64,000 bases of DNA from an uncultured Candidatus Binatia bacterium (lineage in GTDB: Bacteria; Desulfobacterota; Binatia; UBA9968; JAJDTQ01), in contig OZ243916.1 in the NCBI GenBank assembly GCA_965213675.1, forward strand, positions 2,560,001-2,624,000, in the 5' to 3' direction. This document shows positions 38,156-44,877 of the stretch, piece after piece (position 1 is the stretch's first letter; each line of letters begins with the position of its first letter). A model generated the notes under the pieces. It worked only from the letters and a program-made list of their open reading frames with translations, made no database searches and was not told the DNA's origin. A program made the position numbers and the translations under genes.

Positions 38156-38443
38156 ATGGAAGCACCTTACGACAACCCATCCGAAACCGCCGAAGCGCTC
38201 ATCGAGCGCCTTGCCCAAGCGGTGCATGGCCGGCGCATGACGGTGCCGGCGATCCTGTTTCTCGAAACCCACAAGCCGCTGACGTCGCTGTTCCATACGG
38301 CGGCGGTGATGAGCCTGCCGATGATGCTGCCGCTGTTCGGCGCGAAGGCGCGGGAGTTGCCGGCGTTTCTCCAGTCGCGGGACAACGTGGAGCGGCTCAT
38401 CCGGCGCATCGAAGAACTCGCCGGGGAAGGCGGAAAGGACTGA
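38156..38443 (+). CDS. Small helical hypothetical protein, first gene of the GlmL-like operon
   Basis: 95 aa, VPAILFLETHKPL...NVERLIRRIEE; TGATG overlap with the next gene. Confidence 0.8.
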   Translation: MEAPYDNPSETAEALIERLAQAVHGRRMTVPAILFLETHKPLTSLFHTAAVMSLPMMLPLFGAKARELPAFLQSRDNVERLIRRIEELAGEGGKD

Positions 38444-39252
38444 TGAGCGGTTTCGAGAACGCCACCCCAGGGGTGCTGGTGGTGATGGCGCTGATGATCG
38501 CGCCGGTGCTCTACTACATTCGCGTGGCGCGGCGGCGGAGCGACCTTTACGTGCGCCGGCTGGCCGGTGTGGACGCCATCGACGAGGCCGCCGGGCGGGC
38601 GGCGGAGATGGGGCGCCCGCTGTCCTTCTCCACCGGCCTCACCAATGTAAGCCCGGTCCTGTACGCCTGCCTGGGGGTGCTCTATTACGTGGCGCGCAAG
38701 GCGGCGCAGTACCGGACGCGCCTGCTGGTGCCGCAGAACACACCGGAGGTCATGGCCATCGCCGAGGACGTGCTGCGCGAAGCCTACCGCGCCGAGGGCC
38801 GCTCGGCCCTGTTCGATCCGCGCAACATCCGGTTTCTCTCCGAGGAGCAGTTCGCCTTCGCCGCGGGCTACATCGGAATGGTGCAGCGGGAGCGCGTGGC
38901 GGGCGCCTTTCTCTTCGGCAACTTCGCGGCCGAATCGCTGATCCTGGCGGAGGCGGGGCAGCAGGTGGGGGCCATGCAGGTGGGCGCCTCGGTGAGCCCC
39001 GAGCAGGTGGCGTTCTTCATCGCGGCGTGCGATTACACGCTCATCGGCGAGGAGCTGTTCGCCGCGTCGGCCTACCTCACCCGTGAACCCATCCAGCTCG
39101 GCAGCCTCTACGGGCAGGACCGCGCCAAGCTCTTCCTCTTCCTCATGATCCTGGCCGGAGTGGGCATCGCCACGGTGAACTCGGTGTGGCCCGAACTGGG
39201 TCTCACCAACCTGGACACCCTCATGCATCTTGGCTGGGGGTTCGGGTCGTGA
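38443..39252 (+). CDS. DUF6754-like membrane protein
   Basis: N-terminal TM, VRRLAGVDAIDEAAGRAAEMGRP, FLSEEQFAFAAG, FAAESLILAEAG, ACDYTLIGEELFAASAYL, C-terminal TM; family recognised from memory. Confidence 0.75.
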   Translation: MSGFENATPGVLVVMALMIAPVLYYIRVARRRSDLYVRRLAGVDAIDEAAGRAAEMGRPLSFSTGLTNVSPVLYACLGVLYYVARKAAQYRTRLLVPQNTPEVMAIAEDVLREAYRAEGRSALFDPRNIRFLSEEQFAFAAGYIGMVQRERVAGAFLFGNFAAESLILAEAGQQVGAMQVGASVSPEQVAFFIAACDYTLIGEELFAASAYLTREPIQLGSLYGQDRAKLFLFLMILAGVGIATVNSVWPELGLTNLDTLMHLGWGFGS

Positions 39253-41882: not shown

Positions 41883-43732
41883 AAACGGACCCCGCCGCCC
41901 TGCGCACCGTGCTGGTCACGGACTGCGGCTCCACCACCACCAAGGCGCTGCTGTTCGAGAAGACCGGGACAGGCTGGCGCCAGACGCACCGCGGCGAGGC
42001 CCCCACCACCGTGGAACAGCCGGTGGCGGACGTGACCGCCGGCGCGCTCAACGCCTTCGCCGAGGTGGAGGAAATCAGCGGCCGGAAGATTCTGGTCCCC
42101 GGCGGCGCGCACGGCGGCGCGACGCCGTTCCTCGAATCCGGCACAGACGGCGCCCACGGCATCGACCTCTACCTGTCCACCAGCTCGGCTGGCGGCGGGT
42201 TACAGATGACTGTGGCCGGGGTGGCGCGCCAGATGAGCGCCGAGTCCGCGGAGCGGGCGGCCTTGAGCGCCGGCGCCATCGTCATGGACGCCATCTCCGC
42301 GGACGACGGGCGCGAGGACCACGAGCGCATCCAGCGGCTGCGGCAGTTGCGGCCCGACATCGTGCTGCTCACCGGCGGCGTGGACGGCGGTTCCCAGGAA
42401 CACGTGGTGGAGATGGCGGAGACCCTGGTGGCGGCCTCGCCGCGGCCGCGGTTCGGCGACACATTGCGGCTGCCCGTGATCTACGCGGGCAACCACGAAG
42501 CCGTGGACGACGTCCGGCGCATCCTCGAGAAGAGCGCACAAGTGGCGGTGGTGGACAACGTGCGCCCGGTGCTGGAGGCGGAGAACCTCGGCCCGGCGCG
42601 GGAAGCCATCCACGAATTCTTCCTCACCCACGTCATGAGCCACTCGCCGGGCTACGACAAGCTGCTCCGGTGGACGCCGGCGCCGGTGATGCCCACGCCC
42701 GCGGCCGTGGGGGACATGGTGCGGGAGCACGCGGCGAGCACCGGGCAGGCGGTGTTGTGCGCGGACATCGGCGGCGCCACCACCGACGTGTTCAGCGTCT
42801 TCGAGAACCGGCAAGGCGAGCCGGTGTTCAACCGCACTGTGAGCGCGAACCTGGGCATGAGCTATTCCGTGGCCAACGTGCTCATCGAGGCGGGTGTCGA
42901 AGGCATCCACCGCTGGCTCCCGTGCGACATCCAGCCCTCCGAAGTCCGCGACCGGTTGCGCAACAAGATGATCCGCCCCACTTCGATTCCCCAGACCCTG
43001 GAGGACCTGTGGCTGGAACAGGCGGTGTGCCGCGAGGCCTTGCGCCTGGCGCTGGCGCACCACCGCTCCCTGGCCGTCGGGCTCAGCGGCGTGCAGCAGC
43101 AGCGCGGCATTGCCGACATCTTCTCGCAGACCGCGAGCCGCGCGGACCTGGTGGACATGATGCGCCTGGACCTGGTGATCGGCTCGGGCGGCGTTCTGAG
43201 TCACGCGCCGGATCGCATGGGCGCGGCCCTCATGATCCTGGAGGGGTTCGAACTGCAGGGCTTCACGCAGATCGCCGTGGACTCCATCTTCATGATGCCC
43301 CACCTGGGCGTGTTCGCCTCGATCCACCCCCAAGCCGCGCGCGAGATCTTCCTGCACGACTGCCTCGTGAACGTGGCCCATGCGCTCGCGCCCGTGTTCC
43401 CGCCCAAGCGGCCGGCGGGCTCGGTCCTCGCGGAGGTGTCCGTCGACGGCGGGCCGGCCGTCCCCCTCACCGCGGGCGCGGTGGGCCGCATCGAACTGCC
43501 ACCCGGCGCCGCCACCCGGATCGTCGTCCGCCCGGCCCGGGGCGCCGTGGACGTGGGCGCCGGCCCGGGCGTGCCGCTGGAACGGGAGTTCACCGCGGGC
43601 CTGTGCGGCGTCATCCTCGACGGTCGCAACCGTCCGCTCCGAACCACTCCGTTCGCGGAGGCACAGACGGCGGAGCGCCGGGCCGTCATGGCGGAACTGG
43701 GGCTCATTCACCGCGCAGGCGACGAGCCATGA
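41879..43732 (+). CDS. GlmL/MutL (glutamate mutase L) family ASKHA ATPase
   Basis: Phosphate-1 VTDCGSTTTK, STSSAGGGL, phosphate-2 DIGGATTDVFS, RTVSANLGMSYS, adenosine-like GSGGVLSHAP. Confidence 0.88.
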   Translation: MKTDPAALRTVLVTDCGSTTTKALLFEKTGTGWRQTHRGEAPTTVEQPVADVTAGALNAFAEVEEISGRKILVPGGAHGGATPFLESGTDGAHGIDLYLSTSSAGGGLQMTVAGVARQMSAESAERAALSAGAIVMDAISADDGREDHERIQRLRQLRPDIVLLTGGVDGGSQEHVVEMAETLVAASPRPRFGDTLRLPVIYAGNHEAVDDVRRILEKSAQVAVVDNVRPVLEAENLGPAREAIHEFFLTHVMSHSPGYDKLLRWTPAPVMPTPAAVGDMVREHAASTGQAVLCADIGGATTDVFSVFENRQGEPVFNRTVSANLGMSYSVANVLIEAGVEGIHRWLPCDIQPSEVRDRLRNKMIRPTSIPQTLEDLWLEQAVCREALRLALAHHRSLAVGLSGVQQQRGIADIFSQTASRADLVDMMRLDLVIGSGGVLSHAPDRMGAALMILEGFELQGFTQIAVDSIFMMPHLGVFASIHPQAAREIFLHDCLVNVAHALAPVFPPKRPAGSVLAEVSVDGGPAVPLTAGAVGRIELPPGAATRIVVRPARGAVDVGAGPGVPLEREFTAGLCGVILDGRNRPLRTTPFAEAQTAERRAVMAELGLIHRAGDEP

Positions 43733-44877
43733 CCCAGGCGCTCACACCCAGGCTGCAGGTCCTGGCTGAAACCATCGTGCGGAAGACCCGCGAACTCCCC
43801 GTGCCGGGCCGCATCCTGTGCGCTCCGGAAGACGCCGTTGCCGCCGACACCGTGGTGGCCCGCGCCGAGCTGCCCGGCGACCTGTCCATCCTGCGGATCC
43901 CCGAAGCTCTCGGCATCGAACCCGCCGAAGCCCTCAAGGGCCTCACGGTGCGCGAGGGTGATGCCGCCAGTGAGGGGGACATCCTGTGCGAGCATGTGGG
44001 CCTCTTCGGGCTGTTCCGCTCGCGCTTCCATGCGCCCGCGAGCGGCGCCGTGGAGTTCATCGCGCCCCGCACCGGGCACGTGGGAGTGCGGTTGGCGCCC
44101 CATGCCATCGAGTTGAACGCCTACGTCCCCGGCACGGTGGCGGCCGTGGACCCGGGCAAGTCCGTCACCATCGAATGCCGCGCCGCGTTCGTCCAGGGCA
44201 TCTTCGGGGTCGGCGGCGAGCGCTCCGGCGCCATCCGCATGCTCGACGGCGGCCCCAAGACGATCCTGGGTCCCGGGAGGATCCCGGACGATGTGTCCGG
44301 CCAGATCCTGGTGGGAGGTACGCGACCGACCCTCGACGCCCTGCAACGCGCCGCCGAAAACGGTGCCGCCGGCCTGGTGGTGGGCTCCATCGACGACTAC
44401 GCGCTGACCGGCTACCTTGGCTACGATCTCGGCATGGCCGTCACCGGACACGAGGACGTGTCCATGACCGTCATCGTCACCGAGGGCTTTGGCTGGCTCG
44501 CCGTGGCCGAACGCACCCACGCCCTGTTGCGGCGCCTCGAAGGCCGCGCCGCCTCCATCAACGGCACCACCCAGGTGCGCGCCGGCGCGGTGCGCCCGGA
44601 GATCATCGTGGCCCGAACCGAGGGAGTTGGTGGCGCGGGCGGCGAGCAGGATGTGGCTGCCGGCGCCGGCGCGCCGCGGGACCCGGGGTCCGGGCTGCGC
44701 GTCGGCGCCTTCGTGCGCATCATCCGGGAGCCCCACTTCGGCGTCGACGCGGAGATCCTCGCCCTGCCCGCCGAGCCCCAACTCATCAAGACCGGCGCCC
44801 GTACCCGGGTGCTGGAGGCCCGGCTGCCCGACGGCACCCTCGTCACCGTCCCCCGCGCCAACGTCGAGCTGCTCTGA
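43729..44877 (+). CDS. Hypothetical protein with barrel-sandwich-hybrid-like repeats and a C-terminal KOW-like segment
   Basis: VREGD...GDIL.E..GLFG....APASGAVEFI...TG; QGIFGVGGE; VTEGFG; LRVGAFVRIIREPHFG...VPRANVEL. Confidence 0.8.
   Translation: MTQALTPRLQVLAETIVRKTRELPVPGRILCAPEDAVAADTVVARAELPGDLSILRIPEALGIEPAEALKGLTVREGDAASEGDILCEHVGLFGLFRSRFHAPASGAVEFIAPRTGHVGVRLAPHAIELNAYVPGTVAAVDPGKSVTIECRAAFVQGIFGVGGERSGAIRMLDGGPKTILGPGRIPDDVSGQILVGGTRPTLDALQRAAENGAAGLVVGSIDDYALTGYLGYDLGMAVTGHEDVSMTVIVTEGFGWLAVAERTHALLRRLEGRAASINGTTQVRAGAVRPEIIVARTEGVGGAGGEQDVAAGAGAPRDPGSGLRVGAFVRIIREPHFGVDAEILALPAEPQLIKTGARTRVLEARLPDGTLVTVPRANVELL

What the first reader, a model, noticed from the sequence alone, without database searches (positions are those of the whole stretch)
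38156..44877. Seven-gene operon pairing an orphan GlmL/MutL-family ASKHA ATPase with an uncharacterised membrane complex
Seen in sequence: seven co-oriented genes joined by TGATG (38443), GTGA (39249), a 1-nt gap (40300) and ATGA (41172, 41879, 43729) junctions, which points to translational coupling. Products are a 95-aa helical protein, a DUF6754-like protein, two roughly 6-TM proteins, a membrane-anchored alpha/beta protein, a 617-aa ATPase with intact ASKHA motifs (DCGSTTTK, DIGGATTD, GSGG), and a barrel-sandwich-hybrid/KOW-like protein. Established: characterised GlmL/MutL genes sit with the B12-dependent glutamate mutase subunits glmS/glmE, yet no mutase or B12-binding gene is in this window. 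Inference: the ATPase energises or assembles a dedicated multi-subunit membrane machine, for example a non-ABC ATP-driven transporter or an ion-translocating or peptide-handling complex. I know of no functional description of this complex. The co-oriented yejABEF-like peptide uptake locus immediately downstream hints at a peptide or amino-acid link.
Basis: partly seen in the sequence, partly recalled or inferred. Interest (0 to 1): 0.85.

Follow-up and report, generated by a model that had tools for sequence, protein, structure and literature searches.

The report
Uncharacterised actin-fold ATPase membrane machine
Seven tightly packed genes in this Binatia genome encode an actin/Hsp70-fold ATPase, its partner protein and a five-protein membrane complex. 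The set recurs almost unchanged in distant bacteria, has no link to the vitamin-B12 enzyme its database name implies, and matches no described cellular machine.

Summary
Seven co-oriented genes (38156-44877) overlap or abut exactly as described. Gene 2 is DUF6754. Gene 6 is a PF13941 "MutL/GlmL" ASKHA ATPase with invariant nucleotide motifs, but it scores below every NCBIfam GlmL cut-off. The other five match no Pfam family.

The set is a conserved unit:
- Of 80 related loci, 60 keep genes 2-7 in order, 16 are cut by contig ends and 4 have the ATPase elsewhere.
- In the genus, DUF6754 and PF13941 are present together in 22 of 24 genomes and missing together in 2.
- GlmE was found in 0 of 24 genus genomes and not in this one.
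- DUF6754 was found in 0 of 200 other genomes of the phylum, so the genus probably gained the module laterally.

Physical links:
- 36 protein clusters fuse ATPase and partner.
- Two fuse genes 4 and 5.
- A structure model places the ATPase on the cytoplasmic Rossmann-like domain of DUF6754 (ipSAE 0.69, best control 0.00).
- Some Bacillota-labelled proteins join this ATPase through one membrane helix to an outward-facing M1 peptidase.

Best reading: an undescribed ATP-coupled membrane machine, possibly handling peptides. The function is inferred, not shown. This scan met the same system repeatedly on other DNA, and no paper turned up.

The parts
38156..38443 (+). Gene 1 (P0001, 95 aa): small helical protein, no Pfam family
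   Evidence: ORF. tblastn relatives sit just upstream of DUF6754 in 36 of 80 loci at >=85% coverage, with 28-90% identity. No hydropathy segment passes the threshold.
38443..39252 (+). Gene 2 (P0002, 269 aa): DUF6754. An N-terminal membrane helix, a cytoplasmic Rossmann-like alpha/beta domain (about 41-213) and a C-terminal membrane helix.
   Evidence: PF20539 E 6.8e-85. Fold model pLDDT 88.1. Structure matches are generic Rossmann-like, Z 10.1 to 8.9 over 50 rows. Modelled to bind the ATPase. Cytoplasmic placement rests on the positive-inside rule (4 K/R after helix 1) and is inference.
39249..40298 (+). Gene 3 (P0003, 349 aa, GTG start): six-helix membrane protein with a variable helical insert of about 140 aa (about 97-238) between helices 3 and 4
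   Evidence: No Pfam family. Relatives in 78 of 80 loci. The alignment shows conserved helices and a variable insert. The start is taken at 39249 because relatives begin right at the end of gene 2. An earlier GTG at 39186 is also open.
40300..41175 (+). Gene 4 (P0004, 291 aa, GTG start): alpha/beta domain between two membrane helices, predicted to face outward. Invariant D60, E68, E78, H79, H207; nearly invariant C209.
   Evidence: No Pfam family in this protein, and none recurring in 59 relatives. The family has 3183 representative clusters at E <= 0.001. Fused to gene 5 in P0241 and P0263.
41172..41882 (+). Gene 5 (P0005, 236 aa): membrane protein of about six helices with invariant E29, N30, R34, E37, H38 between helices 1 and 2
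   Evidence: No curated family; weak DUF2975 matches in 16 of 61 relatives, best E 5e-4. Gene 4::gene 5 fusions carry one extra helix between the two parts, which fits an outward-facing N terminus (inference).
41879..43732 (+). Gene 6 (P0006, 617 aa): long-clade GlmL/MutL-like ASKHA ATPase with a C-terminal extension of about 120 aa
   Evidence: PF13941 E 7.2e-121. Below the GlmL, Or-4 and TIGR01319 cut-offs. Motifs invariant. Single copy in the genome. Fused to gene 7 in 36 clusters and to an outward M1 peptidase through one helix in P0131-P0133.
43729..44877 (+). Gene 7 (P0007, 382 aa): three-domain partner. Barrel-sandwich hybrid (about 48-125), swivel beta/beta/alpha (about 135-299), KOW/SH3-like (about 320-382).
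   Evidence: Fold model pLDDT 89.4. NqrA N-terminal domain Z 8.0, rmsd 1.8, 64 aligned, 28% identity. PTS enzyme I swivel domain Z 9.8, rmsd 2.6, 107 aligned. Spt5 KOW Z 8.2, rmsd 2.1, 55 aligned. No Pfam family.

Best explanation
The seven genes are one self-contained module that builds a machine at the cytoplasmic membrane.

- Genes 1-5 form the membrane part. It has two polytopic subunits (genes 3 and 5), one subunit with an outward-facing alpha/beta domain (gene 4) and one with a cytoplasmic Rossmann-like domain (gene 2, DUF6754).
- The ASKHA ATPase (gene 6) works as one unit with its three-domain partner (gene 7) and docks on the DUF6754 domain.
- ATP binding and hydrolysis in gene 6 are passed through the membrane subunits to a substrate handled at the outer face. 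I think uptake or processing of peptides or amino-acid-derived compounds is the most likely job.
- It is not a helper of glutamate mutase.

What is shown: the gene set, its conservation, co-occurrence, the fusions, the folds, and the absence of a mutase.
What is modelled only: the ATPase-DUF6754 contact.
What is inferred: topology, the direction of energy coupling, and the substrate.
For: 1. Operon anatomy: six overlapping or abutting junctions.
2. Conservation: 60 of 80 loci from Binatia-, Bdellovibrionota-, Oligoflexia- and Dadabacteria-labelled genomes keep genes 2-7 in the same order and strand. 16 are cut by a contig end. 4 have room but no ATPase next to gene 5.
3. Co-occurrence: in the genus, DUF6754 and PF13941 are both present in the same 22 of 24 genomes and both missing in the same 2. 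In three genomes where the ATPase is not beside genes 1-5, it is still present once elsewhere.
4. Fusions: 36 of 41 longer relatives of gene 7 are full-length PF13941::gene 7 fusions. P0241 and P0263 are gene 4::gene 5 fusions.
5. Modelled complex of gene 6 with DUF6754 residues 32-222: ipSAE 0.69, 0.69 and 0.62, best of 3 controls 0.00. That mark was reached by 58 of 80 solved complexes and 2 of 110 mismatched pairs. The runs agree in at least 90% of contacts, and the partner's pLDDT is at least 82. No solved relative of either chain was found by sequence, so a pass from memory is unlikely.
6. ATPase competence: the phosphate-1, phosphate-2 and adenosine motifs are invariant.
7. Membrane tether and peptide hint: P0131-P0133 (1332-1334 aa) read signal peptide, Peptidase_M1 with an HEIAH motif, one membrane helix, then an ATPase 49-50% identical to gene 6 over 95-98% of its length.
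8. No mutase link: GlmE was not found in this genome or in 24 genus genomes. Gene 6 scores 213 against a cut-off of 475 for GlmL.
Against: - No substrate, transport activity or ATPase activity is shown by any result.
- The contact is a model. Its interface residues are no more conserved than the rest: gene 6 0.71 vs 0.70 (permutation 0.40), DUF6754 0.79 vs 0.76 (0.33).
- The DUF6754 fold matches are a flat, generic Rossmann-like list, so they give no ligand.
- Genes 3, 4 and 5 were not folded, and they match no transporter family.
- The M1 fusions come from a few clusters of another lineage. Their gene neighbourhood could not be fetched, so whether they work with DUF6754-type membrane proteins is unknown.
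- The ATPase and partner can sit far from genes 1-5.
- Earlier notes of this scan report the ATPase-partner pair beside other membrane systems, so the pair may not be specific to this complex.
Confidence: 0.55

Rival explanations
1. Mechanotransmission without transport. As in FtsEX or MacB-type systems, the cytoplasmic ATPase changes the shape of the membrane subunits in order to switch an outward-facing hydrolase or binding domain on and off. That domain is gene 4 here and the M1 peptidase in the fused forms. Nothing crosses the membrane.
For: - Gene 4 has an outward-facing domain with invariant Asp, Glu and His and a nearly invariant Cys.
- The ATPase is tethered by a single helix to an outward M1 peptidase in P0131-P0133, an arrangement with no obvious pore.
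- Non-Binatia loci add two outward coiled-coil proteins.
Against: - Two polytopic subunits with conserved charged residues are more than a signal relay needs.
- Gene 4 matches no hydrolase family and was not folded.
- No cell-wall or lipoprotein genes are conserved neighbours.
Confidence: 0.2
2. Reactivase-like cofactor handling. B12-enzyme reactivases use an ASKHA ATPase to open a Rossmann-like subunit and swap a cofactor (established for DdrAB; proposed for GlmL; recalled knowledge). By analogy, gene 6 would load or exchange a cofactor on the Rossmann-like DUF6754 domain of a membrane-bound redox or ion-moving enzyme.
For: - Gene 6 belongs to the PF13941 family.
- It is modelled to grip a Rossmann-like domain through its inserted domain.
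- Among the tied top structure matches of DUF6754 are NAD(P)-binding sirtuins and transhydrogenase domain III (Z 10.1-9.8).
- Gene 7 carries a swivel domain, as the reactivase alpha subunit does, and an NqrA/RnfC-like N-terminal domain.
Against: - No cofactor-binding motif or family is detected in any of the seven proteins.
- The Rossmann-like matches are generic and tied.
- No redox domains, Fe-S motifs or flavin families occur in the operon.
- No B12 enzyme is nearby.
Confidence: 0.1
3. Membrane-anchored cytoskeletal or scaffold role. Gene 6 would polymerise or scaffold like FtsA, MreB or PilM, organising an envelope complex rather than doing chemical or transport work.
For: Actin-fold membership. 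A weak sub-threshold match to the archaeal MreB-like C-terminal domain (E 0.01, 16.8 bits against a cut-off of 27.8). Docking on a membrane protein.
Against: - Its family relatives are non-filament enzymes or chaperones (GlmL, Or-4).
- Earlier notes place the system in both wall-less archaea and bacteria (not tested here).
- The module looks laterally gained by one genus, which is unusual for a core cell-shape system.
Confidence: 0.05
4. Ordinary GlmL. Gene 6 would assist a B12-dependent mutase encoded elsewhere, and the membrane genes would be chance neighbours.
For: The database name ('glutamate mutase L' on relatives) and the PF13941 match.
Against: - Below the GlmL, Or-4 and TIGR01319 cut-offs.
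- GlmE not found in this genome or in 24 of 24 genus genomes.
- The one GlmE found among 16 other-family genomes sits beside a different, short PF13941 gene (474 bits).
- Gene order with the membrane genes is kept across distant lineages.
Confidence: 0.02

Closest known systems
GlmL/MutL, accessory protein of coenzyme-B12 glutamate (methylaspartate) mutase (PF13941; NF040745), and the Or-4 ornithine-degradation relative (NF040744)
   Same: Same Pfam family and ASKHA fold, with the same three nucleotide motifs.
   Different: - Scores 213 and 208 bits against equivalog cut-offs of 475 and 600.
- About 120 residues longer.
- No mutase in the genome or genus.
- Always travels with membrane genes and gene 7.
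- Canonical short copies (about 480-530 aa frames, about 474-505 bits) occur in other families of the order without DUF6754.
Diol/glycerol dehydratase reactivase (DdrAB) and EutA
   Same: An ASKHA ATPase combined with a swivel domain, acting on a Rossmann-like subunit (recalled knowledge). 1nbw_A appears only as a weak Foldseek row for gene 7 (rank 37, E 0.028).
   Different: - Here the swivel domain is on a separate protein that also carries barrel-sandwich and KOW domains.
- The Rossmann-like target is membrane-anchored.
- No client enzyme is present.
NqrA / RnfC N-terminal barrel-sandwich-hybrid domain
   Same: Gene 7 residues 51-123 superpose on NqrA (4u9o_A: Z 8.0, rmsd 1.8, 64 aligned, 28% identity) and RnfC (8ahx_C: Z 7.9, rmsd 3.7, 71 aligned). 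In both cases the protein is a peripheral cytoplasmic subunit of a membrane complex.
   Different: - No NADH, FMN or Fe-S domains.
- No Rnf/Nqr membrane subunits.
- Z values of this size are common for small domains.
Swivel phosphohistidine domains of PEP-utilising enzymes (PTS enzyme I, rifampin phosphotransferase)
   Same: Fold of gene 7 residues about 152-296 (2wqd_A: Z 9.8, rmsd 2.6, 107 aligned; 5hv1_A: Z 9.1).
   Different: No invariant or nearly invariant His in that domain among 48 sequences. H241 is Asp in the consensus. A phosphohistidine relay is therefore unlikely.
ABC-2 permease::M1 peptidase fusions
   Same: A cytoplasmic ATPase coupled through the membrane to an outward M1 zinc peptidase. 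P0131-P0133 show the same logic with this ATPase.
   Different: - The motor here is an actin-fold ATPase, not a P-loop ABC ATPase.
- The comparison rests on earlier notes that I did not test.
Hsp70-type import motors (mitochondrial Hsp70 on Tim44/TIM23; BiP on Sec63)
   Same: An actin/Hsp70-fold ATPase docked on a membrane complex to drive a process across it (recalled knowledge; a functional analogy only).
   Different: No sequence or family relation was tested or claimed. There is no substrate-binding domain of the Hsp70 kind.

Membership tests
GlmL (NF040745, methylaspartate mutase accessory protein) | Whole-protein score at or above the curated equivalog cut-off (475 bits) | tested here: not met
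   213.4 bits
GlmL (NF040745, methylaspartate mutase accessory protein) | Encoded with, or at least in a genome with, glutamate mutase GlmE/GlmS | tested here: not met
   PF06368 was not found in this genome, which is 97.7% complete, nor in 24 of 24 genus genomes. The nearest B12-binding domains are about 2.3 Mb away.
GlmL-related Or-4 (NF040744) and TIGR01319 glmL_fam | Score at or above the curated cut-offs (600 and 204.05 bits) | tested here: not met
   208.2 and 173.2 bits
Pfam PF13941 (MutL), ASKHA superfamily | Domain match over the gathering score, and intact phosphate-1, phosphate-2 and adenosine motifs | tested here: met
   404.5 bits against a cut-off of 27, profile positions 1-449 of 450. 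D15-K22, D296-D303 and G435-G438 are invariant in 50 sequences.
Pfam PF20539 (DUF6754) | Domain match over the gathering score | tested here: met
   284.7 bits against a cut-off of 27, profile positions 12-251 of 257
ABC transporters | P-loop ABC ATPase subunit and ABC-type permease within the unit | tested here: not met
   No ABC_tran or permease family in any of the seven proteins at E <= 0.1. The ABC genes downstream are a separate locus conserved only in Binatia.
Rnf / Nqr complexes | RnfC/NqrA-type subunit with its nucleotide and Fe-S domains, plus RnfD/E/A-type membrane subunits | tested here: not met
   Only the N-terminal barrel-sandwich domain of gene 7 resembles NqrA/RnfC by structure. 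No Rnf or Nqr Pfam family appears in the seven proteins.
PEP-utilising enzyme swivel (phosphohistidine) domains | Conserved phospho-accepting histidine in the swivel domain | tested here: not met
   No His among the invariant or nearly invariant columns of residues 135-299 in 48 sequences. The fold itself is shared.
B12-binding (GlmS-like) domain as the identity of the DUF6754 cytoplasmic domain | Structural or sequence match to B12-binding domains | tested here: inconclusive
   Not among the 50 rows of the structure search, which are tied generic Rossmann-like folds. No PF02310 match. No direct comparison was made.

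The most novel reading that the evidence does not exclude
This is one copy of a new class of primary-active membrane machine whose motor is an actin/Hsp70-fold (ASKHA) ATPase rather than an ABC, P-type, rotary or AAA+ ATPase. 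The motor, with a swivel-domain partner, grips a Rossmann-like domain of a membrane subunit. It drives uptake or outward-face processing of peptides through subunits that belong to no known transporter family.
Probability: 0.35. Interest if true: 0.9.

Novelty: categorically new. Interest (0 to 1): 0.75.

Why it matters
If the reading holds, a whole kind of ATP-coupled membrane machinery has gone unnoticed.

- The gene 4 family alone has 3183 representative clusters at 50% identity.
- DUF6754 has thousands of relatives (6642 scored hits).
- Earlier notes of this scan report the set in many bacterial phyla and in archaea.
- No paper in the searched library names it.
- Its ATPase is mislabelled "glutamate mutase L" in public records, which spreads a wrong pathway inference into genome annotations.
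- The module is compact (6.7 kb), apparently self-contained, and laterally gained by one genus. That makes it a practical target for heterologous expression and structure work.
- The modelled ATPase-DUF6754 contact and the M1-peptidase fusions give concrete, testable starting points.

Tried and rejected
- **Literature.** 'DUF6754' and 'PF13941' returned 0 papers. 'GlmL' gave 869 papers; the 25 listed were unrelated (statistics terms, OCR noise), and I saw the listing only. 'glutamate mutase' + 'ASKHA' + 'membrane' returned 0. Four phrases for the family name returned 1 unrelated paper, listing only. Supplements are closed and were not seen.
- **Metagenome scan with the M1-fused protein P0131**. 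All 80 loci matched only its M1 part, and none holds any of the seven genes. The neighbourhood of the fused genes stays unknown.
- **Sequence searches of solved structures.** Gene 6 alone gave 0 hits. Its profile gave 2 chance-level rows. The DUF6754 profile gave 0. The gene 4 profile gave only low-complexity or chance rows.
- **Per-member Pfam scans** of 59 gene 4 and 61 gene 5 relatives found nothing recurring, except weak DUF2975 in 16 of 61.
- **Profile-profile comparisons.** Gene 4 vs DUF6754, and gene 5 vs gene 3, show no relation (probabilities 1.1% and 0.3%).
- **Foldseek** against solved structures gave no whole-chain match for gene 7 or DUF6754.
- **Protein atlas.** Only unnamed clusters or minority Biotin_lipoyl/RnfC_N labels.
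- **Interface conservation test** was neutral.
- **Promoter and terminator scan.** One promoter-like site, after the operon, and two terminator-like sites inside genes, fewer than in shuffles. Uninformative.
- **Sequencing runs.** No RNA holder listed. The small-share rows were not examined and say nothing about habitat.
- **P0173** (gene 7 followed by half a DUF6754). A single-member, truncated protein with 165 unexplained residues between the parts. I did not count it as a fusion.
- **The two extra coiled-coil genes of non-Binatia loci** were not found in this genome with these two queries.

Full report
**Observation**

The window holds seven co-oriented open frames at 38156-38443, 38443-39252, 39249-40298, 40300-41175, 41172-41882, 41879-43732 and 43729-44877.

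Pfam names two of the products. Gene 2 is DUF6754 (PF20539, E 6.8e-85). Gene 6 is PF13941 'MutL' (E 7.2e-121). Genes 1, 3, 4, 5 and 7 match nothing at E <= 0.1.

Against NCBIfam, gene 6 stays below every relevant cut-off:

| Model | Score (bits) | Cut-off (bits) |
|---|---|---|
| GlmL | 213.4 | 475 |
| Or-4 | 208.2 | 600 |
| TIGR01319 | 173.2 | 204.05 |

Its three ASKHA motifs are invariant in 50 sequences. Hydropathy gives 2, 6, 2 and 5-6 membrane helices for genes 2-5 and none for genes 1, 6 and 7.

**Organism and distribution**

Record titles of the closest loci read 'Candidatus Binatia'.

- DUF6754 is in 22 of 24 other genomes of the genus and in 0 of 16 genomes of two other families of the order.
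- In an even draw of the phylum it is in 0 of 200 other genomes.
- PF13941 is present in exactly the same 22 genus genomes and missing in the same two, G005 and G014.
- Eight of the 16 other-family genomes carry PF13941 copies that score higher (seven full-length ones at about 474-505 bits, in frames of about 480-530 aa) and have no DUF6754. One of these copies, in G026, sits next to the only GlmE found.

So there are two clades: a short mutase-type one, and the long one studied here, which travels with membrane genes. GlmE was not found in this genome (97.7% complete) or in any of the 24 genus genomes. The only two B12-binding domains of the genome are about 2.3 Mb away.

The pattern is one genus in the phylum, with the next relatives in Bdellovibrionota-labelled genomes (DUF6754 at 75% identity, the ATPase at about 70%). 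That points to lateral gain of the whole module by the ancestor of the genus. This is inference.

**Conservation of the set**

A scan of one genome per species, using DUF6754 patterns, confirmed 136 relatives and kept 80 loci. tblastn with the seven proteins sorts them as follows:

| Loci | Result |
|---|---|
| 60 of 80 | Genes 2-7 in the same order and strand (in L078 gene 7 lies 3.4 kb further on) |
| 16 of 80 | End at a contig edge before gene 6 or gene 7 |
| 4 of 80 | L021, L036, L066, L072: at least 1.8 kb after gene 5, but no ATPase there |

For three of those four I searched the genomes. Each has exactly one PF13941 gene elsewhere: about 90 kb away in L021's genome, and on another contig in the other two. 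Several Binatia loci carry a 0.6-0.9 kb insert at the gene 5/gene 6 boundary. The membrane block and the ATPase-partner pair can therefore be separated in the DNA but stay together in genomes.

Gene 1 relatives are detectable in 36 loci at >=85% coverage.

Neighbours outside the set are not conserved across lineages. The peptide ABC locus downstream follows the cluster only in Binatia loci (0 non-Binatia). Non-Binatia loci instead add two co-oriented upstream genes for membrane-anchored or secreted coiled-coil proteins, in 34 and 31 loci. These were not found in this genome with those two queries.

**Folds**

*Gene 7* (48-sequence alignment, pLDDT 89.4) has three domains:
- A barrel-sandwich hybrid like the N-terminal domain of NqrA and RnfC (4u9o_A: Z 8.0, rmsd 1.8, 64 aligned, 28% identity).
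- A swivel beta/beta/alpha domain like the mobile domain of PTS enzyme I (2wqd_A: Z 9.8, rmsd 2.6, 107 aligned), rifampin phosphotransferase, RraA and the small subunit of aconitase X.
- A KOW/SH3-like end (5xon_W: Z 8.2, rmsd 2.1, 55 aligned).

The swivel domain has no conserved histidine, so it is not a phosphohistidine carrier.

*DUF6754* (pLDDT 88.1) is a Rossmann-like alpha/beta domain between two membrane helices. Its structure matches are a flat list, Z 10.1 to 8.9 over 50 rows: sirtuins, transhydrogenase domain III, RCK/KTN domains and SIS domains. They name no ligand.

By the positive-inside rule, the DUF6754 domain is cytoplasmic and the gene 4 domain faces outward (inference).

*Gene 4* keeps invariant D60, E68, E78, H79 and H207 and a nearly invariant C209. 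That would suit a metal or catalytic site, but I could not fold it.

**Physical links**

- 36 of 41 longer relatives of gene 7 are full-length PF13941::gene 7 fusions of 989-1022 aa. Two more are fragments of such fusions, and two are fusions from a more distant clade.
- Among the 150 best representatives of the gene 4 family, P0241 (522 aa) and P0263 (598 aa) are gene 4::gene 5 fusions with one extra helix between the parts.
- A complex model of gene 6 with DUF6754 residues 32-222 scored ipSAE 0.69, 0.69 and 0.62 against 0.00 for the best of three controls. That mark was reached by 58 of 80 solved complexes and 2 of 110 mismatched pairs. The runs agree in at least 90% of contacts, and the partner's pLDDT is at least 82.
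- The contact uses the inserted domain of the ATPase (residues 115-120, 141-144, 166-178, 229-232, 403-418) and helix 41-58 plus residues 86-91, 176-178 and 193-199 of DUF6754.
- Neither chain has a solved relative by sequence, so recall of a known complex is unlikely.
- The interface is no more conserved than the rest of these very conserved proteins, so that check adds nothing.

**A new lead**

Among longer relatives of gene 6 (11 hits), seven are distant (27-30% identity) mutase-type proteins, three of them carrying a B12-binding domain. Four are close (48-50% identity over 94-98% of gene 6).

Three of those four, P0131-P0133, read as follows:
- a signal peptide;
- an outward region with a Peptidase_M1 domain and an HEIAH...E zinc motif;
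- one membrane helix followed by a run of arginines;
- a linker;
- the ATPase, including its C-terminal extension.

P0130 has the same plan with a diverged outer region. This ties the ATPase clade to the membrane by a covalent link and to an outward peptidase. I could not fetch the neighbourhood of these genes.

**Interpretation**

What is shown: a conserved, co-inherited, translationally packed seven-gene unit, a competent-looking ASKHA ATPase with an obligate partner, a membrane part of four larger subunits plus a small protein, and no link to glutamate mutase.

What is modelled: the ATPase sits on the cytoplasmic DUF6754 domain.

What is inferred: ATP turnover is passed through the membrane subunits to a substrate at the outer face. 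I favour uptake or processing of peptides or amino-acid-derived compounds, because of the M1 fusions and the two polytopic subunits with conserved charged residues.

Rivals are a relay that only switches an outer-face enzyme, a reactivase-like cofactor exchange on the Rossmann-like domain, and a scaffold role. The ordinary GlmL reading is contradicted.

**Relation to earlier work of this scan**

Look-ups show the same system was reported many times on other DNA: Nitrospira, Anaerolineae, an archaeon, and tandem duplicates. Each time it was called undescribed. Those notes mention the ATPase-partner fusion and the swivel domain, which I re-derived here.

None of the listed notes mentions three results obtained here: the M1-peptidase::ATPase fusion, the ATPase-DUF6754 model, or the confinement to one genus of this phylum.

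Notes on ABC-2 permease::M1 peptidase fusions offer a parallel in which an ABC motor takes the place of this ATPase. I did not test them.

**Verdict**

This is a real, strongly conserved and undescribed ATPase-membrane system. This window adds a laterally gained Binatia copy and three new pieces of evidence on how the parts connect. The function remains inferred.

Noticed in passing
window 45026-50853 (+): Peptide-type ABC uptake locus: an SBP_bac_5 binding protein (45026-46873), a permease (46931-48040), and one 938-aa open frame (48040-50853) that joins a second permease to two ABC ATPase domains, that is a YejE::YejF-like fusion. It follows the seven-gene cluster only in Binatia loci.
   Followed up: partly
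window 30902-37813 (+): A 2304-aa open frame with a Calx-beta domain. By eye it has long internal repeats and a beta-rich C-terminal end, so it is probably a giant surface or autotransporter-like protein directly upstream of the operon.
   Followed up: no
L017 13604-14044; also L011, L026, L027, L028 between genes 5 and 6; L021 genome: The gene 5/gene 6 boundary is a rearrangement hot spot in Binatia. Five loci carry inserts of 0.6-0.9 kb; in L017 the insert is an AT-richer 146-aa ORF of no obvious family. In one genome about 90 kb separates the ATPase from genes 1-5.
   Followed up: partly
L029 7821-9727; L053 7611-9496 (and 30+ other non-Binatia loci): Two extra co-oriented, overlapping genes sit directly upstream of gene 1 in non-Binatia loci (34 and 31 loci). 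One encodes a membrane-anchored and one a signal-peptide protein, both with long coiled coils and no Pfam family. This makes a nine-gene version of the operon.
   Followed up: partly
L029 1598-3832 and 13 other non-Binatia loci: A pair of PilT-like T2SSE ATPase genes lies 2-8 kb upstream of the cluster in 14 loci, and a hexapeptide-repeat transferase gene in 23 loci. This may be only shared ancestry of these genomes.
   Followed up: no
G026:C44:9632-12905: A genome of another family of the same order has a canonical pair: GlmE (PF06368) next to a short PF13941 gene. It also has a second short PF13941 copy elsewhere, and no DUF6754. It is a useful contrast clade.
   Followed up: no
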